A stretch of DNA of 64,000 bases. Origin: the human T2T-CHM13v2.0 reference genome, Homo sapiens. Shown here piece after piece: positions 1-58,750 of the stretch (the first letter of the stretch is position 1; every line of letters starts with the position of its first letter). The position numbers and the translations under genes are program-made. The notes beneath the pieces are model-generated. The model saw only the letters and a program-made list of their open reading frames with translations, was not told the DNA's origin and searched no databases. The stretch is taken from the NCBI RefSeq assembly GCF_009914755.1, contig NC_060928.1; one strand, written 5' to 3'.

Positions 1-4
1 TACT

Positions 5-210
5 ATTGCCAAGTACTTTATATGCATTTTCTCACTTAATTTTTTGGAACAACCTTATAAGGTGAGTATTTTCATTATCCGTATTTTATAAATGAGGAAA
101 CTGAGACTCAGAGAAGTTATGTGACTTGCCAAAGTCCAGAGAGCTGATAAATGACAGCTGAGACTCTAGCACAGGAAGCTGTACTAGAGTTCATTCTCAT
201 GACTATTACT
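5..210 (-). mobile_element. MIR SINE
   Basis: Contains the MIR core attttataaatgaggaaactgagactcagagaagtt...gacttgcc. Confidence 0.75.
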
Positions 211-380
211 TATAACATCTTCCCTCTTTCCTTGATTGTCCAAAAATTATAAATAAAATATTATATATGATGTTTACAATTTGTCTGAAATTTACTTCTT
301 GGGAACTGACCATGTTCACTGTGAAAAAAAATTTTAAATACCAAGGTCTCTAGTTTTTGCAAAATTTCATTATAATACAT

Positions 381-639
381 AAGAGGGACCCACACATTTC
401 AACTGCCTGTAATGTGGGGACACATGATTGTGAAGTAAATGAGATATCCAGTAAGTACCTGGCTAGGTTTCGTCACAGGTGCCAACAACGCTACTGGGCC
501 ACCAGATTCTGTCCCCATCCTGGCTCTTTCTGGCACCATATGGTAACAGTTTTTGTCAATTTAATTATTGGGGCTAGGCTTTTGGGTCTTGTGGCTGCTG
601 GCACATGTAAACAGTGTCAGTGGCTCCAATAATCGCCCA
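381..639 (+). pseudogene. Candidate first coding exon of the C4orf33 paralog (cytoplasmic tail plus transmembrane helix)
   Basis: The frame of ORF 357..632 gives KRDPHISTAC...RFRHRCQQRYWATRFCPHPGSFWHHMVTV. A +1 shift in the T-run 550-554 continues LSI*LLGLGFWVLWLLAHVNSVSGSNNRP, ending at a phase-0 donor CCA|GTTAGT (640). This matches the phase-0 acceptor of the 18879 exon. No homolog is recalled with certainty. Confidence 0.45.
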
Positions 640-949
640 GTTAGTTGGCATCCTTTCATGGGCTTAATCCAGAAAGATTGGCCACAAGAATCCTGGAGAC
701 ATGGAAACCACCTCCTGTCACTGTTTTCCCAGATGGAGTCATCCCATGATCCTTTCTTCTTTCTTTCACTCTGTCCTCTATAAGATTGTCCCCCTCTCTT
801 CCATAGAAGAAGATAAAGAACCTTTGCCTTAGGACTCTTAACCCCAAAATCAATTTTGAGTATAGTAGATGATCTGTTGGTTTCTATCTTCTCCCTAGTC
901 ACCTTTCCCTCTAAAATGGGAGTGGACTAAGGCTTTACAAGCTTCAGTG

Positions 950-1690
950 TAAAAATAAAACTTAAAAAAATTTAAAAACTTAAATGAGAAAATGTGGTGA
1001 AACATCTTTGTGATATTGGGCAGGGGAAAAGATTCTCTAATCAAGACCCCAAAGTTCTGATCAGAATGAAAAATATTATTAGATTTGACTACAGTGGAAT
1101 AGCAGCTCCATGTTCAGGGGAGGTCGTGATAGACAAACTGGAAAGAAAGAGGTTAGATTGAGAAAACTCACACAACATTTAGAAGCAGTAAGCAATACAA
1201 AGACTTCCTACAAATCAGCTATGAAAACCAAAAGGAAAATTAGCAAACGAAATGAACAGGCACTTTATAGACAGGGAAACTGAAGAGACAAATAAGCATA
1301 TGAAAAATGTTCTAACTGACAAATAACCATTCTGTCCTATAAATAAAATATATTCCTGTTAGGGAATAAAGTATAACATCAAATAATGTTAAATGCTGGT
1401 GAGAATGTGAGGCAATAGGACTTTAATCTATGGCTGGTGAAATTGTGACCAGCACAGCTCCTCTGGCCAGCAAATTGTCACACCTGTTCAGGATACATAT
1501 TTTCCCCTGACCCGGAACTCCCACTACTGAGTACAGCACCCCAGGTGTCACCACCGGGCCACAGAAGACAGGAGCCAAGATCTTAATCACACTGTACTTT
1601 CTTGTAGGGAAGCCTTGGGCCAACTTAGGGTTCTTCAATAGTGGGATTAATGAATGAAATTGAGTCTGTAGAGAGTACAGAAGAAACAAT
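950..1690 (+). mobile_element. Old L1M (L1ME-like) 3' fragment
   Basis: Degenerate L1 ORF2 3'-end motifs (aaacatctttgtgatattggg, atgaaaaatgttc, atgctggtgagaatgtg). Boundaries approximate. Confidence 0.6.
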
Positions 1691-2134
1691 AACAGCCAAT
1701 ATTCACACAGTGCTTATGATACGTTCTAATGCATACATGTATTAATTAATAACAGCCATTTATTATTAATGTTCCCATGTTATAGGTCAAGACACAAGAG
1801 GTGTAGAGAAATCAGGAGAATAGCCTGGCTCAGAGCAGGGGAGCCAGGTCGGCACTCTGCCCCCAATAGTCTGTGTTCCAGCCACTGAAGGAATTGCAAG
1901 GGGATGGAATGAGATGAGAAGCAATCCCCAAACAGCAATTTCCATCATGTTCATATAATGGCAAGGGATGAGGAGCCCTATCAGATATCCAGCGAGATGA
2001 GACATTCAGGGTGATGAGGCATCCAGGGTGGAGGGTTCTTCCTAAAAGTGAATCTTACAAGGAAATACAGATGGACTTAGGAAAAGGTTTAAGAGCCTGA
2101 CTAAAGTTTGGTTAAGTGAAGAATCATGATCACA

Positions 2135-2210
2135 TCTCTATCTGTCTGTCTGTCTATCTACCCATTTCTATCTCTGTTGATCTATCATCTACTTATCATC
2201 TATCTGTCTA
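2135..2210. repeat. Degenerate (TCTA)n microsatellite
   Basis: tctatctgtctgtctgtctatcta...atcatctatctg. Confidence 0.7.
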
Positions 2211-2442
2211 ATCAAAGCTGCAGAAATTTCATTGATTCCATATTGAGTAATTTTATGGGGATCACAGAAAAAAATAACATTTCTTTATTCTTTTTCATTT
2301 GTCCCTAATCTCTCTAAGTTCCACTAATCAGAACCTCAAACCTTAATGACATTGATGTCAACTTCCTGGTATAAAATAAGGCATAAAATAAAATTTCCAT
2401 GTCTTTTGTTGTTGCCCTAATGTTCCATCTTTCATGTATTTC

Positions 2443-2742
2443 TTTTCTTTTTTTGTTTTTTTGAGACAGAGTTTCACTCTCGTTGCCCAGGCTGGAGTGA
2501 AAGGCGTGATCTCGGCTCACTGCAACCTCCGCCTCCCAGGTTAAAGTGATTCTCCTGCCTCAGCCTCTTGAGTAGCTGGGATTACAGGCATGTGCCACCA
2601 CGCCCGGCTAATTTTGTATTTTTAGTAGAGACAGGGTTTCTCCATGTTGGTCAGGGTGGTCTTGAACTCCCAACCTCAGGTGGTCTGCCCGCCTTGGCCT
2701 CCCAAAGTGCTGGGATTACAGGCATGAGCCACTGTGCCTAGA
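2443..2742 (-). mobile_element. Alu (AluSp-like)
   Basis: Full Alu with TSD catctttcRtgtatttc. Confidence 0.95.
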
Positions 2743-2784
2743 CATCTTTCGTGTATTTCTGAGTATATTTGTACCATTTTCAAA

Positions 2785-4350
2785 TACAGTCCTGCACTGC
2801 ATAATGACATTTTGGTCAACAACAGACCACACATAAGACAGTGGTCCCATAAGATTATAATGGAACTATCACATATAGCACCATCATTACAACATCTGTT
2901 GTAATGTCACAGTGTTATGCATTACTTACATGTTTGTGGTGATGTGGGTGTGAACATAAAATTATGTATGGTGCATAATGCTTGATGAAAATAACAAATG
3001 ATGATGTTAATGTTCTATGTATTTACTATTCTACAGTTTGTATTGTTATTTTAGAGTATATGCTTACTACTTATTTTTTTTTAAGTTAACTATGAAACAA
3101 CCTCAGGCAGGTCCTTCAGGAGGTTTCCAGAAGAAGGCATTATTATCATAGGAGATGACAACTCCATTGTTGTGGGAAGTCAGGGACCCCGAACGGAGGG
3201 ACCGGCTGGAGCCACGGCAGAGGAACATAAATTGTGAAGATTTCATTTTAATATGGACATTTATCAGTTTCCAAATAATACTTTTATAATTTCTCATGCC
3301 TGTCTTTACTTTTATCTCTTAATCCTGTTATCTTTGTAAGCTGATGATGTACGTCACCTCAGGACCACTGTGATAATTGTGTTAACTGTACAAATTGATT
3401 GTCAAACATGTGTGTTTGAAAAATATGAAATCAGTGCACCTGGAAAAAGAACAGAATAACAGCAATTTTTAGGGAACAAGGGAAGACAACCATAAAGTCT
3501 GACTGCCTGTGGGGTCAGGCAAAAAGAGCCATATTTTTCTACTTGCAGAGAGCCTATAAACAGATGTACAAGTAGGAGAAATATCACTAAATTATTTTCC
3601 TAGCAAGGAATATTGGTATTAATACCCTGGGAAAGGAATGCATTCCTGTGGGGAGGTCTATAAATGGCCACCCTGGGAGTGTCTGTCTTATGTGGTTGAG
3701 ATAAGGACTGAGATATGCCCTGGGTCTCCTGCAGTACCCTCAGGCTTACTAGCGTGGAGAAAAACTCCATCCTGGTAAATTTGTGATCAGACCAATTCTC
3801 TGCTCTCGAACCCTGTTTTCTGTTGTTTAAGATGTTTATCAAGACAATATGTACACCACTGAACATAGACCCTTATCAGTAGTTCTGCTTTTTGCCCTTT
3901 GAAGCATGTGATCTTTGTATCTACTCTCTGTTTTTACACCCCCTCCCCTTTTGAAACCCTTAATAAAAAACTTGCTGGTTTGAGGCTCAGGTGGGCATCA
4001 CCATCCTACCTATATGTAATGTCACCCCCGGCAGCCCAGCTGTAAAATTCCTCGTTTTGTACTCTTTCTCTTTATTTCTCAGCCGGCTGACACTTTCGGA
4101 AAATAGAAAGAACCTATGTTGAAATATTGGGGGCAGGTTCCCCCATTACTCTATGCATGTTACTGCCCCTGAAGACCTTCCAGTGGGACAAGATGTGGAG
4201 GTGGAGGACAGTGCTATTGATGATACTGACCCTGTTTGTGTTTGTGTCTTGGTTTTATAAAAAAGTTTTAAAAGTAAAATAAATAAATAATAGAAAAAAG
4301 CTTGTAGAATAAGGTTATAAAGAAATAAAATATTTTTGTACAGCTATATA
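2785..4350. mobile_element. Tigger3/MER7-like DNA transposon, interrupted by MER11
   Basis: Starts with ta-cagtcctgcactgcataatgacattttggtcaac and resumes after the LTR at 4149. Confidence 0.7.
3168..4148 (+). mobile_element. MER11 solo LTR (ERVK/HML-8)
   Basis: Runs tgttgtgggaagtcagggaccccgaacggagggaccggctgg ... ttcccccatta; 6-bp TSD ctccat/ctctat. Confidence 0.88.
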
Positions 4351-4359
4351 ATTTGTGTG

Positions 4360-4482
4360 GTTTTTTGTTTGTTTATTTGTTTGAGACAGGGTCTCACTCT
4401 GTCACCCAGGCTGGAGTGCAGTGGCACAATCACAACTCACTGCAGCCTTGACCTCCTGGGGCCCAGGGATCCTCCCGCCTCA
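4360..4482 (-). mobile_element. Truncated AluJ/FLAM fragment
   Basis: tgagacagggtctcactctgtcacccaggctggagtgcagtggc... ends abruptly at the minisatellite. Confidence 0.85.
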
Positions 4483-5040
4483 GAAAGACACCAGTCCTCC
4501 AGGTAGACATCAGGTCCCAGGTGGACACTGGACTCAAGGTGTACATCAGGGTGCCAAGTTGACAACCAGGTCCCAAATAGACAGCAAGGCCCTTGGTGGA
4601 CATTAGGCCCATGTTGAATACCAGACTCATGTAGACATCTACCATGCCTTAGGTAGATACATAGGCTCCAGGTGGACATTAGACACACAGTCCCCAAGTG
4701 ATCATCAGGACCCCGGTGAAAACTGAGGCCTTAGGTGCATATCAGGCCTTAAGTGGACACCCAAGCCCCAGGTTGATCCCCAGGTCCGAGGTGATTACCA
4801 GGCCCCAGGTGGACACCAGGCCTCAGGTGAACAACAGGATCCAGTAGGCCATCAGGCCCCAGCTGGATACCAGTCTCCAGGTGAACACAAGGTCCCAAGT
4901 GGGACATAAGCCCAAGGCAGACATCAGGCCCAGGTGGACACACAAGCCCCAGGTGGAAATCAGGCCTGAGGAGAACATCTGGCTCCTGGTGGACATCAGG
5001 TGCAGGCATACAAGCAGGCCCTGGGTAGACATAACTATGT
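4483..5040. repeat. Degenerate ~18-19 bp minisatellite, consensus about CCAGGTGGACATCAGGCC, ~30 units
   Basis: Repeated ccaggtggacac/ccaggtagacatcagg units lie directly upstream of the CDRT15-like exon 1. Confidence 0.9.
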
Positions 5041-5264
5041 ATAGGTAAGGAGTTGACCTGGGGGGAGGGTGAACAGTCAGCACCTCAGTGGGGTCCTGAG
5101 CAGGTCTTATGGAAGGAAGGGGCCAAGAGGATGGAAACTTAAGCGACCTCACTTCCTTGATGACAGACCTGAACAGAAGAAGATAACTCTGGTAACCAGG
5201 CGCCCATATCTTAGACTCAGCCCTGTAGCCAGCTCACTTGGTGGGAGTCGCTCAGGAGAGGAAG

Positions 5265-6257
<993 letters not shown>

Positions 6258-6759
6258 CAGGTGGGTGGGGGATGCAGGGGCCAGGGGGGCATCTCCAAAG
6301 GATATAGGAACTGAAGCTTCCAAATTCACCACTTGTGCCCTGGGGTCTCCATGCCGCCACCTGTCCTAAGATTTATTCATAATATCAGAATTACAAGTTT
6401 CTAAAATGACATTTTAATAAAGTTTGACTTTTTGAAACTTCATGCCTTCTTAACTCATGTGAGATGGTGTTCTTGAGGCTATCCTGAAAATCTCTGATAG
6501 TTGTGTGTTTTTGTTGTGGTTGTTTGTGTGATTGAATTACTATCGAATCAACTGTCATTGGAAACCTTTCAGGTATGGCTTTTAGAAGACCTTGACCTAC
6601 TTTTGCCTGTTTTGACTGTCTGGTTTATTGTGAAAAGAGGGATCATGTAGGTTAATTTCTCCAGCAGACCAATCACCTTTTGCCATCAAAGATTTGGCAT
6701 CAGAGTTTCCACAAATTATGTGTACAAGTTGATATGTTGGCACTTTAGCTAATCTAGGG

Positions 6760-7085
6760 GCCAAAACAGAAGGTCATAGACTAGGTAGCGTACAAACAAA
6801 TTTATTTCTTACAGTTCTGGAGATGGTAAAACCCAAGCTGAAGTGGTCAGCAGATTCTGTGTCTGGTGAGGGCTGGCTTCCTCGTTCATAGACAGTCATG
6901 TTTCTACCGTGTCCTCACATGACAGAAGAGATGAAGGAGCTCTCTGTGGTCCTTTAATAGGGGCATGAATCTCATTCATGAAGTCTCTGCCTTCTTGACC
7001 TAATCACCTCCCAAGGCCCCACCCCCAAATACCATCACATAGGGAATAAGATTTCAACACATGAATTTGAGTTTATAGCATCAGG
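6760..7085 (-). mobile_element. MaLR LTR (MLT1A/MST-like)
   Basis: atttatttcttacagttctggag...gtgtctggtgagggc...taatcacctcccaaggcccc...accatcacat. Confidence 0.8.
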
Positions 7086-7161
7086 TCATCCTGATCCATA
7101 TGCACTCACAGGAAATCTATAATCTTCTATAATTATTTGCTGGTCCCTTCTGGGTTTAGGA

Positions 7162-11910
<4,749 letters not shown>

Positions 11911-12865
11911 TTAAAAATTAGGAAATAAACAAAAAGTTTATTTTCTTTTATTAAAAACTGAGTTTAAAATAATTATGATACTCATGGACACTTATATTTT
12001 CCCTTATAGTCTTTACATATTAAATACTTTGACGGCTTTTTATTTTTATCACCATTACACATGGTTAACTTGTTCACTTGAAAAGAAGAACGGGAAAAAG
12101 TTGCTGTCCTGGAGAACATTCTTTCCACTTCTGCATAACCCACATTTAACTTCTAAAACATTAATTACATTTGCAGTGAGGCAAACAGAAAATGTTAGAA
12201 GGGCAGTCAAACCTTATGTATTAGGGATAAGCTGGTGGCCTTTTAGTGCAGAGAATGCACAATTATGCTGTCCATTGCATATTATTTTTCATTAATGTCT
12301 TTGAAGCAGCTCTAACAATGCAGAGCAGCTGATTGTACCTCCTTTAAACTTTCCCTCTCTCCCCCTTCCAACTGACCCTATGCCTCAGGTCACAAAATTT
12401 TTCACTGCCTATTATTGCAGAAATATTTTCACTGGCAATTCCAATGGTGAAGTCCAATTGCAGTGGTTCTCAATTGTACCTCTTAAAACTTATAACAGCA
12501 TGGTTGCCATGTGCTTATAGCTGAGGAAATAATGGCATTCTAAATAGTTATCCAACAGTTTGTTCCAGATCCATAATTATGTATACCAAAATAAATCCAT
12601 CTCAATTTAATGTGGGGTGATACATAGCTTTACATATGTAGTTGAAGTCTTTGTGAAAGCATGCAAATACATGTATGACTTTAAGTAACTTTGACAGTTA
12701 TCCTAGCTGAGCACTATCAATTTGCTAAAATTATTTTAAAATACTTATCATATACTTATCATTTAAACCTTGAATGTTGAACTCTTATCATCAGTATTTC
12801 CTGAAATGGCATTTAGAACCATTTGATCGTGGTGTTTTTCTAGGACATTGTTTCTTCCTGCTTTT

Positions 12866-12882
12866 TGCCACTAGATGGAAGA
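12866..12882 (+). promoter_or_regulatory. Candidate CTCF site
   Basis: tgCCACTAGATGGAaga is one mismatch from the CCACTAGATGGC core. Motif evidence only. Confidence 0.35.
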
Positions 12883-15150
12883 AGCAGGTTAACAAAATGA
12901 TATTTTTGGTGCTTCATTCAACTCTACCAAGAAACACCACATAACTGTGTTTAAAATACTGACAACCTCAGCATGCTTTTATTTATCTATTTTTACTGCA
13001 TTATTCTTTTTGCGTGAATACTGGATCTAAGAACTGTATTTTTGTAGAGGTTAATTTTCTTTTTATTATTTTGATTACTGGAAATTTCAAAAGTAACCAA
13101 GAAAGAAAACAATTGCCAGCTGGAAGAGGAAAGGTAAGAATTATATAAAAACATCCATAACAGGTATGCCACAAAGTAATTCTTAGCATGCATTATTGCC
13201 AAGGAAGCACACAGTATTGCCCTTGTTGAAGACAGTGGACTAGGTGCTGTGAAACACACAAGAAATGACTTGGGTACAGCTCCTATTTATAAAATTTTTA
13301 CATTCTAGAAGAGAGCTAAGCAAGAGGTAAGCCAAATGAATTTACACATACTCTTAGAATAAGGTAGAGATGGATAAATATCAAAATCACAGATATAATA
13401 TTTGGGATGTACATGGTAGGTGGGGAGGGAGGTTTGGAATATCACTTTTATCTGAGAACATCAGGGATCACTTCAGGAAGAAACTGGATCCTTGAAGTAG
13501 GAGGGACAGAGAATAGCATTACAGTGATAGAGGCAGAATGAACAAAGGCACAGAGGCAGGAAACGACAATTTAAAAAATATTTAAAGATGAAAGGATAGT
13601 ACATTTTAAAATAATTTAAAAGCTTGCGTAGAGAGGACATTGTAAGTGGTACTTTTTAAGCAGATGATAGATACAGGAAGTATACTTACAAACTAAGGTA
13701 CCATCTAAGAGAAGCACCTTAGATGCTGGGAAAGTGAAGTTTCAGCTTGGAAATGGAAGGTCACCCAGGTTGAAAGAACCTGGAAATGGAAATTCTAGCT
13801 TCCATTTGATGCCAGTGTTTTATCAGATGTAGGCTTACTGTACACATGGTTCTATCAATTGTTGGGAAGATTCCACAAGGGAAATATACGTTTTGACTTA
13901 CAAAGGCAGCTTTCTGTGGCTTCTATTCACCTTCACTAATCTTAAGCATGCTTAAAAGAAGACAAAGGTGGTAAACATTGTCATTTGACTCCAAGAAACC
14001 AATATTTAACCCGTAAGGCTGCATGTTTTACTATCTACCTCCTTACCTAGCAGTATATTCATATGGATGATCAAAGAATTCTATTCCAGCCACTAAAGGC
14101 AATGATCTTGAGCCCTGATATTATGAGTGGCTATAAAATTATCCAGCTTTTAAATCCAACCACAGAATGTGATTTTATGACCTTCTGTGGAAGTGTAGCT
14201 ATAGGTTAACTAAAGGTTATGAAGTAATATTTCCTTTTTATAGTTCTGAATTCACTGGCTTGTAATTTCAGAGATCACCTTGTTCTATAGTGGGACAAGC
14301 TTTACAGTATTATAATTTTGTATAACCCAATGAAGACCTTGTAACTTTTTCTTTTCCGAATTCAGATTTTTACATTTTTCCTATGATATTGTTTGTATCT
14401 AGTTCACCATTTTAATTGCTAAAATTACACATAGGAGACTATATAATTTTTTTGGCTCTGGAGTAAAGACTTTATATAATTTTAAGTCTCATTTACGTAC
14501 TTTGTTCTATATCTTGCTTACAAGTAAGATGTAGTTAAAACTTAAATATTATTTTACATCTTACTGGGTAAAAATGCTGTTCATTAAATCTTACTTAAAT
14601 TTGATATATGTGTGATACTATATAGGATTATTAGATTACCTAAAAATTATATATATACTTTTATATAGATATCATTTCAAATTAATAAATTTTGATTATA
14701 AACCTCACTTTTTATTATAAAAAGTAACTTGTATCAATAGTTCTCTCTATATGCTAATTTTTCTGGATTCAAAGTAAATATCCTAGTGATTTTAACATAC
14801 CTACATCATCCATGTTTGAACCTAATTAAAGTTAATAATTTTATTTTGCTGACCCTTCATATCCTTTATAAAATATAAGCTGATTGTCCTACTAAGAGAA
14901 GATGCCAGTTTGATTTTACGATATTTTCTGCCTATCTACAATTAAAATCTTTAAATATCATAACTCAGTGGTAGTATTAGATATAAAAATATATAATTTC
15001 AAATGGATTTGTCAGAAGGATAAAAAAAATGGCCACAGAAACCTACATGAATTATTGCTTATCTTTTAGGGCCCTGTATATGTAGGCAAGGTAGCGAATA
15101 GAGGCAACTATTTGAAAAAAGGTGGGCAAAATGTAAAATCCTACAGTTGA

Positions 15151-15214
15151 AGAAATGATACAGCAAGGAGTTTTTAGCCTACAGAAATGATACAGCAAGG
15201 AGTTTTTAGCCTAC
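15151..15214. repeat. Perfect 32-bp tandem duplication
   Basis: agaaatgatacagcaaggagtttttagcctac occurs twice in tandem. Confidence 0.95.
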
Positions 15215-15812
15215 TTACCCAAACTGTGTATTTACATTGATTCTATTGACCTAATATAATCGCACAACTCTTGTAATTCTTTGCCCTTATAGATGAAAGG
15301 GGAACATCTTGAAATAAAATTCTCTAATTCTGATACAACTCAGCCCTAACTTTAATGTTGCTTGGTTTCCTATTATTCTGATTTGAAAATCATTAGTAAT
15401 TTTCCTGTAGAGAGTTTTAAAAATGAAATCTGTCAGAAAAAGGTTATATAGCTGAACAAAACCTGTCCATTAAAAGAGTGTTATCTGCTCCTTTATTGAC
15501 TTTTAGAAGTGTATTTCTTTCAGTTTAGAGAAATTTGATTTTGCCTTTCAGGAATCATACCGTTTTTGGCCAAATAAAACCTCTTTGTTACTATAGGTTG
15601 TAGGATATTCCTCTGTGGAAACCTAATTTAAAAAACAAAAAACAAAAATCAACTCATTGGGTCAAATTCTGTTTTATGTAGTGCTGGCATAAAGTGGGAA
15701 TTTCATAAATTTAACAGAAAGCTGACTAAGCAGTTGAGAATTTGGTAAGCATCAAGCTATTTTAGAATACACCAGCAGTTGAGCATTAGGGTGTCTACAA
15801 ATGTTTTTTTTT

Positions 15813-15866
15813 TGTGTGTATGTGTGTGTGTGTGTATATATATACATATATATTCATATATATATG
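15813..15866. repeat. (TG)n(TA)n microsatellite
   Basis: Seen directly in the sequence. Confidence 0.85.
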
Positions 15867-17047
15867 AATCTTGCTTAAGACGTTTCATACCAGAGAACAT
15901 TTGATTACCAGAATTTTAAAAATGTCTTATTTGTCCACACATACTCATTTTTATTGTGTTTCATACATTTTCTGGTTAACATTTGATATTTCCAAACTAC
16001 ATAGCAAAACAAGTGAAATTTCATACTAAATTTAAAATTATTTTGACATTTTGAACTTTTACTGAAGGTGACAGTTTTACTGAAATTTGCGAGTTGCTAG
16101 AAGAATGCCTTTGACCATGTTGGGATGTTAGAAAGAACATAATCTATTTATAAAAAGAGGAAAAAAATAAATAGAATACATTTTAAAAATCATTCTAATT
16201 CTATTTCTAAGCAAAAGTAGCTCAGAGTTAGGCACAATTTGGGAATGTTTAGGAGCAAATGAACAATCATACCACTGACTATATGGAGTTTTAAACTTTT
16301 TTGCACACAAATTTCTTCTGCTTTTACGATGGGATAGTTTTCTAAATGGCTGTTTAGACCAATGTTTTATCATAATTTATTCTTGGCTTTAAATTTTGTT
16401 TTCTTTTCTTTAGTCAGAGTCAGTTTGGTTAATTTTCTCTACATAATGGGGAATGAATAATTTAAAAGACTTGAATGTATTCTGCACTAGGAAATTCAAG
16501 AAGTATTATGTTGTAGCGAGAAAATAGAGTTCTATTGAATTGAGTTCAATTGTATTCTTTAAGATCCTTTTGTCTTATAAACATTGCATAAGAACCATTG
16601 GAAATAAAGACTATAACTTTGAAAATAAAACCTTACCAGTGTAGTTAGGAGAAATCGGGATAGAAACAAATAATTAATAAATAAAATAAATTTGGATTAA
16701 GACTTCAGATTTCTCAGAGTGTTTTGGTTTTTCTATACATCTTCCATAGTGATTTTTCTAAAACATAAAACTTGTCAGTAAATTCCCTGCTTACAACCTT
16801 CAGTGGTCCACATGGCTTCAGCATAAACTCGAATGTCAGCTCAGTGATCTGCACCCCTTCTGCCAACATCACTTCTTTCATCACGCCCCATCCACCATGT
16901 CCCTTATGCTCCGTTTATCTCCTATCTCCCCTCAGCTATCTCATGGTTCTGGGCTTTTGTTCATGCTATTTCCTCCATTTGTAACATAACTGTTTCCTTT
17001 CCTGTTCTGTTCCTGCACATCCTGTGAGGTCTTTGCTGGCACTCCCG

Positions 17048-17592
17048 TGTTGGAGGCGGAAAGAGTGAGGGTCGTGATCAACTCAGTATACCACTGGAGG
17101 CTACATAAGTAAGCAACAAACTGTTCTCATAAATGCAGAATGTTGGCAAACTGACAAACTGCGTCTGCCGCCCAGAAAGACTGCTGAGGTCAGTCACAAC
17201 CCAGGCGCAAGTGGTTCCTACGATTAGGCGTAATTGAAGCCTGTTAGTAACAATATGAACCTGTGATCAATTAAGCAGCTGACCAATCGTTACCTCCTCC
17301 TCCCTGCTCTTGTTACCCAATAAGGGCTGTAGATGCTTAGGCGGCTGCCTTTGCTCATTAGAAGCAGGGAGTCTTTCTTCTCTCCTTCTCTCTTCTTCCC
17401 CATGCTAGCCTTTCCTTAAAATAGTTACTTTTGTCTTAAGTTTTCATGTCTTCTTTAAAACAGTTTCTTTTGTATTAAGTTTTCATTTCTGCGTTCGTCC
17501 CTTCCTTCAGTCTTGTAATGACGGTCCCAAGCAGTAACAGTAGTAACTGCTATAGTGACAGTCTCAGGTAGTAACCCTGGCAGTCAGCCACA
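17048..17592 (+). mobile_element. LTR3 solo LTR (ERVK/HML-6), inserted in an L2-like remnant
   Basis: tgttggaggcggaaagagtgagggtcgtgatcaactcagtataccactggagg...cagccaca; 6-bp TSD ctcccg/ctctcg. Confidence 0.8.
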
Positions 17593-18045
17593 CTCTCGCT
17601 CTTGCAGCTCCCACCATCAGAACTAGAGGCCCCGTGCTCTGTGTGCCCCTACTTCTATTAAGGCACTTTTCATGCTGTTTTCTCACATGTTGCTCACAGT
17701 TGTGTGTTTTTCCATTAGATTGTGAGTCATCTAAGTCCAAGGGACAGGTCTTGTTTTTGTAACTTCATCATCTAGAACAAAAAAGTCATGATGTTTATTA
17801 ATTGATTAGCACTTGCTAAGCATTCAATATATACCTAGGTCAGAACAACATTCTATTACATTTTGGGAGGGTACATAAAAGTCAGCAGCTAGCATAGAAT
17901 GTGAGCAATAAATGCTAACTGAGGCGATTACTTTCAGCTTTCAAAAAAATTGAAATTAAAATAGGCAAAATAAGCATCCATAAGATAGTTACATTAAATA
18001 TATGTATTTTCCTTTCTTGTGCAGCTCAAGTTCCAGGAGGCTTTT

Positions 18046-18049
18046 TTTC

Positions 18050-18083
<34 letters not shown>

Positions 18084-18332
18084 AAGACGGAGTCTCACTC
18101 TGTCACCCAGGCAGGAGTAGTGCAGTGGCGCGATCTCGGCTCACTGCAAGCTCCGCCTCCCGGGTTCACGCCATTCTCCTGCCTCAGCCTCTCGGGAGTA
18201 GCTGGGAGTACAGGCGCCTGCCACCACACCGGCCTAATCTTTTATGTTTTTAGTAGAGACGGTGTTTCACCGTGTTAGCCAGGATGGTCTCGATCTCCTG
18301 ACCTCGTGATCCGCCCACCTTGGCCTCCCAAA
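18046..18332 (-). mobile_element. AluY, slightly 5'-truncated
   Basis: AluY diagnostics (gcaagctccgcctcccgggttcacgccattc, ccgtgttagccaggatgg); TSD ccaggaggctttt. Confidence 0.93.
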
Positions 18333-18878
18333 CCAGGAGGCTTTTCTGACTACTACAACTCATATTTATCTCTATGTTTTTATTACTTTTCTGTGTATTC
18401 CAATCAGGTTCTTAATGCTTTTTTGAACTGTTCATTAGTTTGTAGATGTGCATTTTGTTTTTTTCCCCTAATAATAAAGATTATAACTTTTTTAAGGGAA
18501 GGGATTACATCTTTAGCTCTTTGACTCTCCTTTATAGAACCTAGTGAGCAGCTGCATATAGTCTATTCTCAAAACTTGTTTGTGGAATGAATAAAAACAT
18601 GTTTATGTTGGTAAACCTTGTATGTACTGCATAGGTAATGTACCTGTATTAAGTCACAACAAGCAATTCTTCAAAATTTTTTTTTTGTAGAAATTTTGCT
18701 ATGGGTAAAAACATTTTAATGCAACTAATAGAATTTTAAAAAATGCAATGAAGTATTCGTTGCCTTGAGGATATTGGTAAAAATGTTATTTGAGCTTAAT
18801 TACATCAAGACCAAGGGAACAAGAAACACATTGCTTCACTTATATCATGGTATTTGATCTCCTGTCTCATTTTGGTAG

Positions 18879-19060
18879 TTGGAATATAAAACTACCACAA
18901 CATGGAACAGTACACCAGTGATACACAGGCCTGTAACTCTCACATTTAAACCTGGGGCTTGAGGCTTACTAATGGAAGTGAATGCTCCAATTTTCAATGA
19001 TCCCCCAGCACCATCAGGGGGCACCAGGGCAACCTTTTAATGAACTCTAGAAGTATGAAG
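18879..19060 (+). pseudogene. C4orf33-paralog exon (matches C4orf33 aa 1-60)
   Basis: [58 protein letters not shown] vs recalled [60 protein letters not shown]. Acceptor tttggtAG, donor G|GTTAGA. Lesions: TGA 18960, extra G in 19017-19021, TAG 19048. Confidence 0.92.
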
Positions 19061-24252: not shown

Positions 24253-24309
24253 TGGTTGGGTCATTTTTTTTGAACCACAGGACTAAGCAGTACCTTGAGG
24301 TGGAACTCG
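24253..24309 (+). pseudogene. C4orf33-paralog exon
   Basis: ttttatttgcAG|(V)VGSFFLNHRTKQYLEVEL|GTAAAT vs recalled VVEAFFLNDITEQYLEVELCP. It appears ~4 nt short at the 3' end, giving a phase mismatch with the next exon. Confidence 0.88.
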
Positions 24310-29404: not shown

Positions 29405-30040
29405 TCAGTTCTAAAAGTTGTCTTTTCTTTACTCGTTTTTGCCTCACTCCCTCCTGTCATTTCATCCTGCCTCCCATTTTCTTGCCTTCCTCCCAACTTT
29501 CCTTTTCCTACTTAGTATAGAACCATAAAATATTAGAGCTGGAAGAGACTTTAAGGGCCGTATATCCAAAACTTTTATTTGGTTCAGAAATCTCTCCTTC
29601 CAATTAGTGGTGGAGCCCATTATTCAGCCTTTGTTTGAAAAGAAAATCTCATGTTGCAAGTGCAATATCTTCTAAAGAATGTTATTGTTAGTAATTTCTT
29701 ATATTTGAGGCTCCCTCCTTTATATTTGTTGTGTTGTTCCTAGTTTTGTCCTTTAGATTAACAAAACAAGTTTTATTTCTCGTCTGTGTAATTAGTTTGG
29801 CTAAAATCTAATCACAGGGCCACATCTCGCTGCAAGGGAGGCTGAAAATATCACCTGTAGCAGTCATGGGCCAGCTAAAAGGTAGCAGGGGAGAGCAGAT
29901 ACTGGTGAACAATCAGCAGGAATGTTTCATGCAGAAAACAGGAAAACAAGTGAAACATGAACATCATTTTATGTGTTCTTTCATATGATAGTTGATTAGG
30001 TGTGGCTACAGGAGAGGCTCAGGGAAGCAAAGTTTATTAT

Positions 30041-30204
30041 ACAGATACGTCTCAACTTATAAGGAGGCTGACAAATCCATCCTAAGTTGAAAATAATGTA
30101 AGCTGAAAATGGAAGTGCATCTTCACACTGAACGTGTCACTTTTGCAGCATCACAATGTTGAAAAACCGTTAAGTCTAACCATCCTAAAATGGGGACCAT
30201 TTGT
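30041..30204. mobile_element. Tigger5/MER47-like MITE
   Basis: TA-flanked, cagatacgtctcaacttat ... atggggaccatttg inverted termini. Confidence 0.6.
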
Positions 30205-31495
30205 ACCCACAGGCCCTAGAAATTGGAAGCAAGGCCATATGGGAAAGCATCAGCTTTAGTCAGGATGCAAAAGGGCAGGAGCCAGGGGAGAGCCTGGGCC
30301 GTGGCTTTTGCTGGTGCAGGAAAGACAGGGTAGGTAAACAGTTTAGGATTGGGAAGTTTAAAAAATTTTGACAGCCTCTAAACTATGAGATAGGGGCTAT
30401 CCTCCGTTGCATGGTACCTGGCCTTGGGTTGTTTAAAGCAGAGGAATATTGCTTCCTGGGGTGTATGGATAGAGAAGATATGGCTCTGGATTGGTTACTT
30501 TGCATCTCAAAGGCATGCTCCCAGCTGGGCCCTTTGCTATTTCTAATAATTGGCTAGTTTCTGGATGGGCAGTCTTTCCTAGCCAGAAAGGCTTTTTTTA
30601 AGATTCCAAAAACATCCTAATATGCAGAAAGTAAAAAATATATACCATATACATCAGTGTAGGAAGTAAAAAACTTTAGGTCAAATAGTACTACATTGAG
30701 TGTCCATTAATTGTCCATTATTATAAATGAAAAATAATTAAATTTAAAGATAAAAGGTATTAAATTTCTGTAATTTAATTTTCTCATGTTACCAACTTTG
30801 AACACTACTGATCGAATGTTAATTTTAAAACATTATTGGGAATCCTAATTCTTAAGAGACGTTTCTAAGATACTCATTCTTTAACTTTTTTGATAAGGCA
30901 ATTTAGCTTCTAACCTTACAAATATGACACCTGTCGGGTATGTACTTAATGCAGATTTTGGTTGAAATGCACGTGTCTCTTGTGTGAAAGGCAGTAAATC
31001 GGGTAGATGCTGGTACATTTACATCTCTGACAATTTGTGAGTAGAATACATTAGCGTATTACGTACACTGTGTTGAACGTTATTAACGTGAATCCAAACA
31101 GCTGGTCCTGAAATTGATGTTCTTTTATCTGATAATTAACTTTTCCTGTTACTTGAAGAGGTAAAAATGTAAATGAAGTTCAGATTTATGGACATTGTTT
31201 AGCACACTTTTTATAGTAAGTTTTTTAAAAAGCGGGGAAATGTATATAATCTATGCAAATGGAAAAGACAAATCCCTTCCTTTAAAATCTGTAAATGTAC
31301 ACACTCTGTGTCCCACCATTACTGGTTCTCAACTTCTGTCATTTAAATAGCCACTATTTTCCAAGAATAAGCTACTAGAAAATCATGAATAAAATTATAT
31401 AAAAAATGAAAATTGGATGACATTTTGACTTGAAAATACTTGAGCTATTGGCCTAATTTCATCTTTATCATTATGATTCTCTTTTGTTTGCTTAG

Positions 31496-31544
31496 GTACG
31501 GACAGCACCTAGTCCTGCTGGTCTGCCATGGTGAAGCATTTGCT
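31496..31544 (+). pseudogene. C4orf33-paralog exon
   Basis: cttttgtttgcttAG|g-YGQHLVLLVCHGEAFA|GTGAGT vs recalled HGQHLVLLLSGRRNVWK. Confidence 0.85.
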
Positions 31545-32527
31545 GTGAGTAATACAAATCTATATTAAATTGATTTAATCATTATGCTACAATTACTATA
31601 TCTTGAAATGCAGGTTTAAATGTTTTTGGGAATTCAAAAACGTACTTTTTTTTTAACTTTGACTTTCTCCTCTAAAGTTCTGGGAAAAGGAAACAAAATA
31701 AGAGAGCTCAAGGACTTGAGAGGGTTGTATCTGTGAGGCTAATATTTTTTTAATGAACCCCTGGTTTGGATGGTTTATGAGTGGGTCCTTCATAAGACTT
31801 ATTGCTTTATATGTGCTCTTGCACACTGGATTTAGTAATGATAACTGCTCTTCTGGGAACAGAGTTTCTTCTACTCAGCTTCCTAAAAGGAACAGCAGAG
31901 AATAGTGTGTACTTTGTTGGAAAATCTTATATAAACTGAGGACACTTTCAACAATGTAGAACCATAAATTTTTTTAAAAAGTGAAATATTTCAAAATGAC
32001 TGAGAAGCACAGAAAATAATGACACTTACCACCTGGAATTAACTCTCACTACCTGAATTTGTCAGATATTAAAAAATAAATCATTATAGACACACCAAAT
32101 CTCACCTCTTAATCCTTTTCTTTTCCTTCCTTTCTTCTCTCTTCCTTTTTCATTTTTTTCTACTTTCACTATTCTAAAGTTGGTCTGTATTATTTCCATG
32201 GTATTTTCATGCCTTTCAATATGTGTATTCATAAAAGACATATTTTATGTATTTTGAAAGTTTATAAAATGACGTATTCTTGTTAATTAATTAAAAAAGC
32301 GATTAAGATGTTTTTGTAAATGACAATATGAGGCATATATATATATAGAGAGAGTCATAGGTATAGATATATAAATTATATAAATATGGCAGAAGTCAAA
32401 TATTTTGCAAAGTTGTATATTTTGCAATGGCTCATGTTAAGTGCTGTATTTTGTTTCAATATATAGAACTCATATGTTCCTCAATTGGTGGACAATTAGG
32501 TTATTTCCATAGAGTTTTTAAAAGCAA

Positions 32528-32947
32528 TTTTATTTTTATTTTTATTTTTTTCAAGAGAATTAAATCGTTTATTGATTACACATGATAATGGATGATGCAC
32601 AAGCTTCATTCCCATCTATAATTTTATCTGGTACCATTATTCAATTTAGATATATTGCATAGGATGTGCCAACAATCACTTTTATAACCAATAATTCCAT
32701 GATTTTGCTTGGGTAATCCCTTTTAATGGTGAACTTCAGGTCACAACAGTAACTATCAGTTCAACTACACCAAGGTTTCCAAAGACAGTGGCTTCGCCAC
32801 CCTAGCAGGTTGTATATAAATTCCAAATAGAACCTGGTATCACCCTGAAGGAATTCTAACTTCACACTTTTGGGGAAATTTACCAAGATGGCTTCAGAGT
32901 AGACTAACTTTACACAGCACATTTTAAAAAAAGACATTTATTCAGTG
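32528..32947 (-). pseudogene. HNRNPA1P: HNRNPA1 3'UTR-only processed retrocopy
   Basis: Matches the recalled reverse complement of the HNRNPA1 long 3'UTR (gattacacatgataatggatgat...cacaagcttcattcccatctataattttatctggtacc). Poly(T) at 32528-32551 and tttatt at 32568. Confidence 0.75.
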
Positions 32948-33299
32948 TGTTTTAAAAATTATTTTACAAACACACATGGTTTAGAAGATCAACTGCAGGG
33001 CTTATGAGTAAATGGAGCACTGTTTGCCCCATTACTCCTCACTCTAGTCTTGTTCCCTCACAGGCAACTGCTTGTAAATATCAAGAGTTGTCTTTGTATT
33101 TACTTTATTAATTATTTCTGAATAATATACAGATACTGGCCTTTTCTAATTCATCAAGCGAAAAGTCTTATCTATTCACCTCCTGTTATAGTGGTTGAGG
33201 ATTTAGCTCTCTTTTCATCACCTTCCCTCCTTACTCCATCCTTTCAGAACACTTACGTCACAAATTTTAGTTAAATTATCAGTGTTTATACTATGATTT

Positions 33300-35130
33300 T
33301 TAAATTTTGTCCGCTACAGAGGTGAGAAGTGTATTTAATAACACGTTCTTTATCACACTTTCTTCTAAAGTTTATAATTGCCTTATTTTTTTCATTTGTC
33401 TAGTTTCCTATTTGCCTGTATTTTTTTCCCCAAGTCTTCCCTCATATTTGTCATAAACCTATTAATTTTTTACAAATGCTCAAACCCAGTTTCAAATATT
33501 CTGTTGGTTTTATTTTTTCCCTATAGCTCTTAATCCACTTGGTAGGCTTTGGATTGGCTGCTTGCCACCTTGACAGTGAGCTGCACAGAGACCACTCAGG
33601 AGCTTCTCTGTAGCACTTACTGTGCTGGAGCTCCTGTTTGTTGGATAATTACCTTTCTTAGTTTATTCCCATGATTTTCTGAAGCATAAAATCCAGAATC
33701 TTCTTAGGAAAGAGGTGTGGGTTGTCCAGTTTCTGACTATTCTGTGTCTGAAAATGTCCACTGAAGTTGATAGTCATCTTTCCTCACCATCTTAATGACA
33801 GTCCTCCATGGTCTTCTAGTTTCCATTATTATTGATGAGACATTCAATTCTTTTACTTATTTTTTTAATGTGTCATTTTGTTTCTTCTTTTGAATACTTT
33901 TCCTGTGTTTTCTTTATCCCTGTCGCACTAGGATTTTAGATACTTTAAACTGATATGAATCTCTTTTCATTCTTAGTACTGGCTATGCTATGAACTCTTT
34001 ACTGTAGAGACTCATGTCCTTTACCTCTGGAAAATTTTTCTTCTAATATTTCTTTATTAACTTTCTTTTTTCTATTTTGTTTGTTTAGAACTCTTTAACT
34101 GTAAGATGTTGGACTATGTGGATGATTCTCTCTCTCTCTCTCTTTTAATTTACCTCATTTTCCATCCCTTTGTGACTTTACATCGTTTTCCATCCCTTTG
34201 TGACTTTACATCATTTCCCATGAGATTTCCTTGACTCATTTTTCAAATTTACATGTTTAAAATTTTTTCTGGTAATAAAAATTAATTTCCAAAAGCTATC
34301 ATCTATTCCATGAATGTGCACTTTAAAAACAACAATATCCAGCAATTTTTCTGTGTCTGCAACACCTCATCTTTTAGAAGATGTGAGGACTACTAATAAA
34401 TTTTAAGTTTTCTTCTGCTATTTCTGTTGCTCTATTTTCTCTGTGTTCTGTTTCTATGCTTGATCTTGTTCTTGCCATTTATATGAGAGGTTTTCTTCAA
34501 ATGCTTGGTGGTTCTTGTCTATTTTGATATTAGAAGCTCTGAGTGGATTTTTTTTTAAATTGGGAGACCTTCAGTAATCATTTGCTGTAAGTATATTCTC
34601 TAGGGCTGTTCTAGTTAGAGAAGAATTCATTAGCCTAGTTTCTGGGTGGTTTTCCTTCAGGATTATGAACAGCACAAAAATTGAGGTTGGAGTTTCTATC
34701 ATTCAGTGTATAGACTTCTTTAATCAACCATATTTCATCTACTTTTTCACCTCCAACACCCTCTCTGCCTAGTATGACTAAATCAAGAGCCCCTCTGGTT
34801 GAATTCTCTGAAGAACAAACCTCTGGTTTCCTGCCTGGGTAATAGATACCTCTGGCTGCTTGGGTTTAAGAAGAACTCTATGGGCATAATGACAATTTCT
34901 TTCAAATAAACTCCTGGCTTGAGCCATGAGATTTACTCATATCTTTAAAGTGTCTATTGTCTTCCCAAGGCCTGAGTCTTTCAGAGATTCTGTAGGGCAA
35001 ATTAACCTGCTTTTTATTGCTCTCTCCCTTTACATGCACTCAATGTTTTCTGATTTCTGCTGTTCTAGATCAATAAATTACCTTTCTTCCATCTAGTTTC
35101 TGAAAATTTATTGACATGCTTCTTCTGCCA
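33300..35130 (-). mobile_element. Highly degenerate old L1M/HAL1
   Basis: T-rich strand bias and motifs tgtctgaaaatgtc, ccatggtcttctagtttccatt, ctctggaaaattttt. Boundaries approximate. Confidence 0.5.
34158..34212. repeat. 28-bp tandem duplication
   Basis: ttttccatccctttgtgactttacatc occurs twice, separated by one base. Confidence 0.9.

Positions 35131-43217: not shown

Positions 43218-43544
<327 letters not shown>

Positions 43545-47409: not shown

Positions 47410-47805
<396 letters not shown>

Positions 47806-53279: not shown

Positions 53280-58750
<5,471 letters not shown>

What the first reader, a model, noticed from the sequence alone, without database searches (positions are those of the whole stretch)
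381..645. Candidate N-terminal exon would make the lost paralog a type II membrane protein
Seen: the 18879 exon starts with TTG directly after an acceptor, at the position of the C4orf33 initiator Met, which suggests an upstream coding exon in phase 0. Unique sequence at 381-639, repaired for one extra T (550-554) and a TAA (562), gives a basic Arg/His-rich tail, a ~21-residue hydrophobic stretch MVTVLSIxLLGLGFWVLWLLA, and a Ser/Asn linker ending at a phase-0 donor GTTAGT. AAG at 381 could be a mutated ATG. Inference: positive-inside topology places the C4orf33-like domain in the lumen or outside the cell, unlike C4orf33, which has no anchor in the sequence I recall.
Basis: inference. Interest (0 to 1): 0.8.

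Follow-up and report, generated by a model that had tools for sequence, protein, structure and literature searches.

The report
Chance reading, not a lost exon
The proposed membrane-anchor exon is a chance reading of ordinary single-copy non-coding DNA; the dead gene's real upstream exon lies 12 kb further on, and its intact relatives in other animals begin with a short secretion signal rather than a membrane anchor.

Summary
They are no more than chance gives. Donors that good occur about once per 109 nt.

The 18879 pseudo-exon belongs to a dead paralog of C4orf33, and intact relatives of that paralog exist. Sixteen of them begin with a short signal-peptide-like N-terminus (MKALLILSLIAAC..) followed by a linker of about 28 residues. 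None of 121 family proteins has a type II-like anchor.

The linker exon survives in the window at 13079-13133. It is 15/18 identical to Tamandua and ends in a phase-0 donor AAG|GTAAGA. This is the real exon upstream of 18879.

No ortholog N-terminus matches 381-645. One unnamed 89-aa ORF is colinear with the unrepaired frame, but it diverges as neutral DNA would and has no membrane-like stretch.

The exon and the anchor type were wrong. The signal-peptide exon was not found in human.

The parts
354..632 (+). Unrepaired stop-free frame of 92 codons (P0123) with no ATG before 540. Judged to be a chance open frame in non-coding DNA.
   Evidence: frame; 55 frames at least this long in the window; no Pfam family above cut-off; only one credible relative among 1.84 billion representatives; it diverges from that relative as neutral DNA would.
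540..602 (+). Hydrophobic run. As it stands it reads MVTVFVNLIIGARLLGLVAAG.
   Evidence: KD 1.96 unrepaired, 2.20 repaired; 1 of 28 such loci upstream of 18879; profile score 6.4 against the ortholog signal peptides, below the null median of maxima of 15.1.
640..645 (+). GTTAGT, the proposed phase-0 donor (context CCA|GTTAGT).
   Evidence: 6 of 9 consensus matches; 589 of 3456 GT sites do as well. The colinear ORF P0124 reads straight through this site.
13079..13133 (+). Relic of the paralog's true second coding exon (linker): T + GNFKSNQERKQLPAGRGK. Its phase-0 donor AAG|GTAAGA is the one that fits 18879. AC stands where the acceptor AG is expected.
   Evidence: tblastn, 79% identity, E 8.8e-5 and 1.2e-6; 15/18 identical to Tamandua; splice contexts; donor matches 8 of 9 positions.
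18879..19060 (+). Relic of the third coding exon, the start of the C4orf33-like domain (LEYKTTTTW..). It carries in-frame stops and a frameshift.
   Evidence: four stops in frame; 66-70% identity to wombat and Tamandua, with a second frame resuming at 19003; frames; placed in the mammalian paralog clade.
24253..24309 (+). Relic of the fourth coding exon (VVGSFFLNHRTKQYLEVEL).
   Evidence: 59% identity, E 1.2e-4; acceptor tttgcag| and donor |gtaaat.
31496..31544 (+). Relic of the fifth coding exon (YGQHLVLLVCHGEAFA).
   Evidence: 63% identity, E 0.024; acceptor tgcttag| and donor |gtgagt.
49545..49744 (+). Relic of the sixth coding exon, with one TGA.
   Evidence: 77% identity, E 9.6e-27; splice contexts; tree placement.
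51166..51319 (+). Relic of the last coding exon, with one TGA and the paralog-specific Cys-Cys tail.
   Evidence: 69% identity, E 5.4e-19.; tree placement.

Best explanation
Window 381-645 is single-copy non-coding DNA upstream of, or in the first intron of, a dead tandem paralog of C4orf33. It does nothing for that gene. The 'exon' is a chance reading: a locally GC-richer patch leaves one frame open for 92 codons, T-rich codons give a hydrophobic run, and a weak GT lies nearby.

The real N-terminal architecture of the paralog, seen in intact orthologs, has two parts:
- a first exon encoding a signal peptide of about 16 residues (MKALLILSLIAACxxG) plus about 9 more residues;
- a small second exon encoding the rest of a polar linker of about 28 residues.

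The relic of the second exon is at 13079-13133. Its phase-0 donor is the partner of the acceptor at 18879.

Shown: the homology of 13079-13133, the ortholog N-termini, and the lack of any match at 381-645. Inferred: that the N-terminus is a cleaved signal peptide so the protein is secreted, that intron 1 is in phase 2, and that the human first exon has been lost or has decayed beyond recognition.
For: (1) The pseudo-exon 18879-19061 finds Tamandua P0003 and wombat P0002 at 68-69% identity. Three window pseudo-exons, placed separately, each fall in a 9-row clade of mammalian rows: Tamandua, two marsupials, three afrotherians and the three window rows (SH-aLRT 98). That clade sits inside a 35-row clade (98) holding all the signal-peptide-bearing forms.

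(2) Of the 32 proteins in that clade, 16 begin M(K/N)xLxxLxxIAAC.. with a 12-residue core of KD 2.5-3.1 (measured on 7 of them) and nothing TM-like later (best 19-mer at most 1.25).

(3) tblastn of P0003 places its residues 27-45 at 13080-13136 with 79% identity. With 28 N-terminal queries against 94 kb, this is the only clear hit (E 1.2e-6). The next best, E 0.005, lies on the wrong strand inside the gene.

(4) Splice contexts fit..AGAGGAAAG|gtaagaat at 13133 and ..ttttggtag|TTGGAA at 18879.

(5) A profile HMM of the 16 signal peptides gives no hit at all to the 354-629 frame. The other pieces in 381-660 score -1.3 to -2.3 bits, ranks 1255-1887 of 2075. The 12 tblastn HSPs overlapping 300-700 all have E of 1.4 or more.

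(6) The chance counts are.

(7) The one relative of the 354-632 frame, P0124, stays in the unrepaired frame and reads past the proposed donor. It has Glu-Gly-Glu inside the 'anchor' (best 19-mer KD 1.33). It shows 40/83 identities but only 44/83 positives. So 0.10 of its non-identical pairs are conservative, against 0.22-0.25 in neutral simulations and 0.34 in real family pairs.

(8) 0 of 121 family proteins have a type II-like N-terminus.
Against: P0124 is an 89-codon ORF from an unnamed source. It is colinear with the human frame over 384-638 and starts with Met exactly where human has AAG-381. An open frame kept in two species hints that something might be read here.

The human signal-peptide exon was not found anywhere from -30000 to 13100. 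So the 5' end of the dead gene is not positively mapped, and an alternative first exon cannot be formally excluded.

The ortholog N-termini are computational gene models. 16 of the 32 clade members have other or partial N-termini.

The signal-peptide call rests on hydropathy and position, not on a dedicated predictor. No other vertebrate genome or RNA-seq data could be consulted.
Confidence: 0.9

Rival explanations
1. One reading: 381-639 is the decayed N-terminal exon of the paralog, encoding a basic cytosolic tail and a signal anchor of about 21 residues. It would be spliced in phase 0 to 18879 and make a type II membrane protein.
For: The repaired reading exists as described. The sequence is single-copy and lies upstream on the right strand. 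The donor and 18879 are both in phase 0, so skipping the small exon would keep the frame. In P0124 a Met sits at the codon equal to 381.
Against: It needs three repairs. 28 equally good loci exist upstream. No ortholog N-terminus matches it. The orthologs use a different exon, whose relic is at 13079-13133. 0 of 121 family proteins are type II-like. The hydrophobic stretch is not kept in P0124, and P0124 follows the unrepaired frame through the proposed donor. The phase-0 donor would not fit the inferred phase-2 acceptor of the second exon (inference).
Confidence: 0.02
2. The hydrophobic run from ATG-540 is the decayed signal-peptide exon (exon 1) of the paralog. It would read MVTVFVNLIIGARLLGLVAAGT in the unrepaired frame and end at CAT|GTAAAC (606|607).
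For: An ATG is followed by a hydrophobic run on the right strand upstream of exon 2. It ranks 18 of 24250 positions, and second among the 458 that start with Met, in an ungapped profile scan of -11200..13100.
Against: Its score is 6.4. By comparison, 15 of 16 real signal peptides score 21.5-42.1, and the median of the best score in 300 shuffles is 15.1. The other exons keep 59-79% identity to Tamandua, so a surviving exon 1 should score far higher. The GTAAAC donor is in phase 1, whereas phase 2 is inferred for intron 1. The HMM gives the frame no hit.
Confidence: 0.03
3. 354-632 is, or was, an independent small ORF or an exon of some other unannotated transcript shared with other mammals, unrelated to C4orf33.
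For: P0124 (89 aa, E 2.7e-10) is colinear in one frame with only in-frame gaps and begins with Met.
Against: Human lacks the start codon (AAG). The amino-acid changes are not conservative: 4 of 39 non-identical pairs. The middle 15 residues do not align, as after compensating frameshifts. There is no Pfam family and no other relative among 1.84 billion representatives. A 121-codon frame is open on the opposite strand over 564-926, as expected from composition alone. Finding P0124 was conditional on its being an ORF in the frame that was searched.
Confidence: 0.05

Closest known systems
Tetrapod signal-peptide-bearing paralog of C4orf33 (database name 'UPF0462 protein C4orf33 homolog', about 236 aa; e.g. 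Tamandua P0003, Chrysemys P0014, Xenopus P0025)
   Same: The window's pseudo-exons 13079-51319 are relics of this gene. The tandem order, C4orf33 then the paralog on the same strand, is also implied by read-through gene models in frogs, turtles and a lizard.
   Different: The human copy is dead: stops, a frameshift, AC at an acceptor, and no detectable first exon. Stretch 381-645 has no counterpart in any of these proteins.
C4orf33 proper (UPF0462, about 199 aa, starts MDF/MEFKIEHTW)
   Same: The same domain, 55-68% identical. The same intron position and phase before the last exon.
   Different: The forms of about 195-200 aa seen have no N-terminal extension; they start at the Met equivalent to TTG-18879. 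The family has no Pfam model above cut-off (only CBM9_2 at E 0.43) and no solved relative by sequence.
Type II (signal-anchor) membrane proteins
   Same: The repaired reading has a basic stretch followed by about 21 hydrophobic residues.
   Different: It exists only after three repairs, it is not conserved in P0124, and no family member has this layout.
Chance open frames in GC-richer intergenic DNA
   Same: Frames are open on both strands (92 codons on +, 121 on -). GC is 0.46-0.47. There are 55 frames this long in the window.
   Different: None found.

Membership tests
N-terminal coding exon of the C4orf33 paralog | Sequence similarity to the N-terminus of intact orthologs | tested here: not met
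   The HMM of 16 signal peptides gives no hit to the 354-629 frame; other pieces score below 0 bits. The 28 N-terminal queries give E of 1.4 or more for every HSP overlapping 300-700. The true match is at 13080-13136 (E 1.2e-6).
N-terminal coding exon of the C4orf33 paralog | Intact or nearly intact frame with a start codon | tested here: not met
   No ATG before 540. The reading needs a frameshift at 550-554 and read-through of TAA-562.
N-terminal coding exon of the C4orf33 paralog | Donor phase that fits the next coding exon | tested here: inconclusive
   The donor is in phase 0. The next exon (13079) is inferred to have a phase-2 acceptor, from the turtle read-through model P0005 and the human C4orf33 donor GAT TT|GTAAGT. 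It would fit only if that exon were skipped.
N-terminal coding exon of the C4orf33 paralog | Codon-level conservation | tested here: not met
   Only one relative (P0124) is available. 40/83 identical and 44/83 positive; conservative share 0.10, against 0.22-0.25 in neutral simulation and 0.34 in family pairs. No DNA of other species was available for a dN/dS test.
N-terminal coding exon of the C4orf33 paralog | Splice junction reads or cDNA | not testable with these tools
   No RNA-seq or vertebrate genome collection is held.
Type II signal-anchor protein (the paralog as a whole) | Hydrophobic segment of about 19 or more residues set back from the N-terminus behind a cytosolic tail, in intact orthologs | tested here: not met
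   Of 121 family proteins, 0 have it. 25 are signal-peptide-like, 59 have no extension, 34 have another kind of extension and 3 are partial.
Secreted protein with a cleavable signal peptide (intact orthologs of the paralog) | Short n-region, then a hydrophobic core of 7-15 residues at the extreme N-terminus, then a polar region | tested here: met
   16 of the 32 clade proteins start this way. In the 7 measured, the 12-mer KD is 2.5-3.1 starting at residue 2-3, and nothing later is TM-like. The cleavage site itself was not predicted; no SignalP-type tool is held.
Secreted protein with a cleavable signal peptide (intact orthologs of the paralog) | Marks of passage through the secretory pathway, such as conserved N-glycosylation sequons | tested here: inconclusive
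   The NGT sequon is present in 10 of 10 amniote paralogs. It is absent from 6 of 6 amphibian paralogs and from the 19 other rows of A1. Suggestive only.

The most novel reading that the evidence does not exclude
The 354-632 frame is the relic of a real small protein-coding ORF, or of an alternative first exon, shared by placental mammals. In another species it is still open for 89 codons and begins with ATG exactly at the codon that is AAG-381 in human (P0124). Human would have lost it by a start-codon change.
Probability: 0.05. Interest if true: 0.4.

Novelty: not a real feature. Interest (0 to 1): 0.1.

Why it matters
It matters mainly as a correction. The dead C4orf33 paralog next to C4orf33 should not be modelled as a type II membrane protein.

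Its intact orthologs point to a secreted form of an uncharacterised domain. The family has no Pfam model above cut-off and no solved relative by sequence. That reading rests on gene models and hydropathy.

Anyone annotating this unitary pseudogene should use 13079-13133 as the exon upstream of 18879. The first (signal-peptide) exon should be treated as missing in human.

Tried and rejected
(1) Signal-peptide exon in human. I looked for it three ways: a profile HMM over six-frame pieces of the window and of -30000..64000, an ungapped 16-column profile that tolerates stops, and tblastn with 28 N-termini. Nothing was significant.
- The best candidate in the relevant interval was 6485 (xKSLIVVCFCCGCLCD, score 17.9), followed 29 codons later by CAG|GTATGG. 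I rejected it because 35 of 300 shuffles reach that score, and because 6403-6700 is multi-copy, with 37 places on chr17, chr9, chr22 and others. It is part of the CDRT15-type duplicated block, not ancestral sequence.
- -22482 (TKSLLILMLISSLKNG, score 15.3, inside a C4orf33 intron) is at the null median and has no donor at the right place.
- 722-760 (CFPRWSHPMILSS against the lizard CFPDFAHHFVLSS, E 0.12) is within the noise and has no hydrophobic core before it.

(2) My first guess was that intron 1 is in phase 1, with CTG read as a mutated CAG. I dropped it after searches pointed to phase 2.

(3) A search restricted to residues 1-70 of P0003 returned only P0003 itself, so it yielded no further mammalian N-termini.

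(4) Pfam on the 18879 pseudo-exon gave 0 families. Pfam on P0003 and P0014 also gave 0 families, and on P0117 and P0123 only sub-threshold matches: CBM9_2 at E 0.43 and DUF3514 at E 0.18. A PDB sequence search with the family profile gave 0.

(5) Rfam on 1-1500 gave two sub-threshold matches: TUG1_2 at 22.9 bits against a gathering score of 90, and sR24 at 17.3 against 36.

(6) Structure prediction of the paralog was not accepted. So there is no fold assignment for the domain.

(7) Literature:
- 'C4orf33': 65 papers, 20 listed; only the listing and abstract starts were seen.
- 'UPF0462': 4 papers, listing only.
- 'C4orf33' with 'pseudogene': 8 papers, listing. In PMC9004415 I read the two passages that name C4orf33; it appears there only as the nearest-gene label for two transposon fossils.
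- 'C4orf33-like', 'C4orf33 homolog' or 'CD033': 53 papers, 12 listed. None of the 12 listed titles concerns this family.
- None of the titles and abstract starts that I saw in these four searches describes a C4orf33 paralog or its pseudogene. Supplements were not opened.

Full report
**1.

All the literal elements are present.
- AAG at 381-383, ATG at 540-542, a T5 run at 550-554, TAA at 562-564 and GTTAGT at 640-645.
- Frame 381 reads ..RFRHRCQQRYWATRFCPHPGSFWHHMVTV. After removal of one T, the text continues in frame 382 as LSI*LLGLGFWVLWLLAHVNSVSGSNNRP and reaches GTTAGT.
- The stretch is single-copy in this genome: 340-700 finds only itself.
- The exon at 18879 does begin with TTG straight after ..ttttggtag.

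**2. Is it more than chance? No.**
- The reading needs a missing start codon, one frameshift and one stop read through.
- With at most one frameshift and at most one stop allowed, 28 loci on the + strand of 1..18878 give a 21-residue stretch at least as hydrophobic (mean Kyte-Doolittle 2.20). There are 114 such loci on the + strand of the whole window.
- Without frameshifts there are 52 such windows in the six frames when one stop is allowed, and 27 with none.
- The donor CCA|GTTAGT matches the consensus MAG|GTRAGT at 6 of 9 positions. 589 of the 3456 GT sites on the + strand do as well, about one per 109 nt.
- The unrepaired open frame 354-632 (92 codons) is one of 55 that long in the window.
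- It lies in a patch of 0.46-0.47 GC between flanks of 0.28-0.36.
- The opposite strand is open for 121 codons over 564-926.

**3. What the 18879 exon belongs to**

Read through with X at its four stops, 18879-19061 finds two proteins among 9 candidates: wombat P0002 (69% identity) and Tamandua P0003 (68%). Both are named 'UPF0462 protein C4orf33 homolog' by their source.

With P0003 as query, 254 family proteins were found at E of 0.001 or less among 548 candidates. The best 120 were listed, so nothing can be said about the 134 not listed.

tblastn of P0003 against the window finds a colinear series on the + strand:

| Window position | Identity | E-value |
|---|---|---|
| 13080-13136 | 79% | 8.8e-5 |
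| 18879-19019 | 70% | 7.3e-19 |
| 24228-24308 | 59% | 1.2e-4 |
| 31488-31544 | 63% | 0.024 |
| 49545-49742 | 77% | 9.6e-27 |
| 51167-51310 | 69% | 5.4e-19 |

I built a quick maximum-likelihood tree of 115 rows. These were 112 family proteins, chosen as those of 160-262 aa plus three long outgroup rows, and three window pseudo-exons entered separately with X at stops.
- Each window row falls in a 9-row clade (SH-aLRT 98) with Tamandua, two marsupials and three afrotherians.
- That clade sits inside a 35-row clade (SH-aLRT 98) that contains every signal-peptide-bearing form.
- My 'SPclass' label of 17 rows wrongly included P0013, which has a different predicted N-terminus. The correct count is 16.

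Monodelphis, Latimeria and Rhineura each have one protein of each class, so these are paralogs.

Read-through gene models in frogs, turtles and a lizard (P0004-P0010) carry the C4orf33-type domain first and the paralog-type domain second. This is the same tandem order as in human, where C4orf33 ends 11.2 kb before the window (hub table).

**4. The real N-terminus**

In 16 of the 32 proteins of the paralog clade, the domain (LEYKITTTW..) is preceded by about 44 residues.
- They start with M(K/N)ALLILSLIAACxxG.
- A polar stretch follows, such as PAHHFLLSSRNVFTNNHQTKSLECKTSE.
- In the 7 I measured, the hydrophobic core is about 12 residues (KD 2.5-3.1) and starts at residue 2-3.
- Nothing later in those proteins is membrane-like: the best 19-mer is at most 1.25.

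This is the layout of a cleavable signal peptide. That is my inference from position and hydropathy; no dedicated predictor is held.

The other 16 clade members are partial or have other predicted N-termini.

Across 121 family proteins:
- 59 have no extension.
- 25 have a signal-peptide-like start, including fish isoforms of 222 aa.
- 34 have another kind of extension.
- 3 are partial.
- None has a TM-like 19-mer set back more than 25 residues from the N-terminus.

An NGT sequon is present in 10 of 10 amniote paralogs and in none of the 19 rows outside the tetrapod paralog set in alignment A1. It is also absent from the 6 amphibian paralogs.

**5. The real upstream exon**

The second half of the linker survives in the window. 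13080-13133 reads GNFKSNQERKQLPAGRGK. It is 15/18 identical to Tamandua GIFQSNQERKQLPAGRGE and 1-6/18 identical to 13 more distant orthologs.

With the N-termini of 28 paralog proteins searched against 94 kb (-30000..64000), this is the only clear hit (E 1.2e-6). The next, E 0.005, lies on the minus strand inside the gene and marks the noise level.

The exon ends ..AGAGGAAAG|gtaagaat. That is a phase-0 donor matching 8 of 9 consensus positions, a level reached by only 14 of 3456 GT sites. It fits the phase-0 acceptor at 18879.

Upstream is a pyrimidine tract..ttttctttttattattttgattac, with AC where AG is expected.

The turtle read-through model P0005 joins ..GQKPD to L-NVFTNNHQTK. Human C4orf33 ends that exon GAT TT|GTAAGT, which is phase 2. 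From these I infer that the paralog's second exon has a phase-2 acceptor and starts at 13079. This step is inference from protein models.

**6. Does any ortholog N-terminus match 381-645?**

No.
- A profile HMM of the 16 signal peptides gives 2075 weak domain hits over the six-frame pieces of the window. The 354-629 frame is not among them. The other pieces within 381-660 rank 1255 to 1887, with -1.3 to -2.3 bits.
- An ungapped 16-column profile scores ATG-540 (MVTVFVNLIIGARLLG) at 6.4. By comparison, 15 of the 16 true signal peptides score 21.5-42.1; the sixteenth is offset by one residue and scores -3.3. The median best score in 300 composition-preserving shuffles is 15.1.
- The 12 tblastn HSPs that overlap 300-700 all have E of 1.4 or more.

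**7. The one relative of the open frame**

The 92-residue frame (P0123) was scored against 1.84 billion representatives. Two proteins passed E 0.001.
- P0125 is a repetitive protein (24% identity, E 3e-4), which I regard as spurious.
- P0124 is an 89-residue protein from an unnamed source (E 2.7e-10).

P0124 aligns to 384-638 in the unrepaired frame throughout (49% identity, E 4e-16, three in-frame gaps). It begins with Met at the codon that is AAG-381 in human. This is the main result against my reading, so I examined it.
- (b) The 'anchor' reads VCVNLITEGEASGFVAVGI, with KD 1.33 and two Glu.
- (c) Identities are 40/83 but positives only 44/83. So 4 of 39 non-identical pairs are conservative (0.10). 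The share is 0.22-0.25 when the human DNA is mutated at random, and 0.34 in 229 real C4orf33-family pairs of similar identity.
- (d) About 15 residues in the middle do not align at all, as after compensating frameshifts.
- (e) The hit could only be found if it was an ORF in the frame that was searched.

I read P0124 as an ORF called on orthologous, neutrally evolving DNA of another mammal.

**8. The missing first exon**

No signal-peptide exon could be found between the end of C4orf33 and 13079.
- The best candidate, 6485, lies in sequence present at 37 places in the genome.
- About 4150-11120 is a multi-copy block related to the chr17 CDRT15 region and to the ZSWIM5 locus on chr1. This matches the annotated CDRT15P11 and ZSWIM5P3.
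- The other exons keep 59-79% identity to Tamandua, so a surviving first exon should have been visible.
- I therefore infer that it was deleted or disrupted, possibly together with this insertion. This is not shown.

**9. Verdict**

The proposed exon is not a real feature. They are borne out by a different exon (13079-13133) and a different device: a short N-terminal signal peptide, not a signal anchor behind a basic tail.

**Limits**
- No vertebrate genome other than the window's own was held, and no RNA-seq.
- No signal-peptide predictor was available.
- Structure prediction could not be run.
- The ortholog N-termini are computational gene models.
- None of the titles and abstract starts that I saw in four literature searches describes a C4orf33 paralog or its pseudogene. 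Passages of PMC9004415 were read. Supplements were not opened.

Noticed in passing
window 13079-51319 (+): Seven-exon-type unitary pseudogene of a signal-peptide-bearing C4orf33 paralog. It is not in the RefSeq table supplied for this window. Six exon relics were mapped. Lesions seen: AC for AG at the exon-2 acceptor; three stops and a frameshift in 18879-19060; one TGA in each of the last two exons; a shortened end of the 24253-24309 exon. Intact copies were seen in marsupials, a xenarthran, afrotherians, reptiles and amphibians among the 120 listed hits. Whether all boreoeutherians lack it was not tested.
   Followed up: partly
window ~4150-11120: Multi-copy block, 79-91% identical to places on chr17 (13.9-20.5 Mb), chr1 (44.89 Mb), chr9, chr2, chr13 and others. 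It covers the annotated CDRT15P11 and ZSWIM5P3.
   Followed up: partly
window 6485-6572 (+): Reading xKSLIVVCFCCGCLCD.., followed 29 codons later by CAG|GTATGG. It resembles the ortholog signal peptides (score 17.9). But 35 of 300 shuffles do as well, and the DNA is part of the multi-copy block. Judged to be chance.
   Followed up: yes
P0124 (unnamed source), aligned to window 384-638: An 89-residue ORF colinear with the human 354-632 frame, starting with Met at the codon equal to AAG-381. It diverges in a non-conservative way.
   Followed up: partly
P0004-P0010 (frogs, turtle, lizard gene models): Predicted proteins of 281-432 aa fuse a C4orf33-type domain to a paralog-type domain. These are read-through models that show the two genes are tandem and on the same strand in those genomes.
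   Followed up: partly
P0044, P0053, P0066 and other fish proteins of 222 aa: Fish C4orf33 isoforms carry a signal-peptide-like extension of 26 residues ahead of the normal Met (MG..LQ..LI.ILLCCESLP..). One gene may therefore give both a cytosolic and a secreted form.
   Followed up: no
L003, window coordinate about -22482 (+), inside a C4orf33 intron: TKSLLILMLISSLKNG matches the signal-peptide consensus at 8 of 16 positions, but scores 15.3, at the null median. No donor follows at the expected place.
   Followed up: yes
window 323-400 (-) and 128-170 (+): Sub-threshold Rfam matches: TUG1_2 at 22.9 bits against a gathering score of 90, and sR24 at 17.3 against 36. Taken as chance.
   Followed up: no
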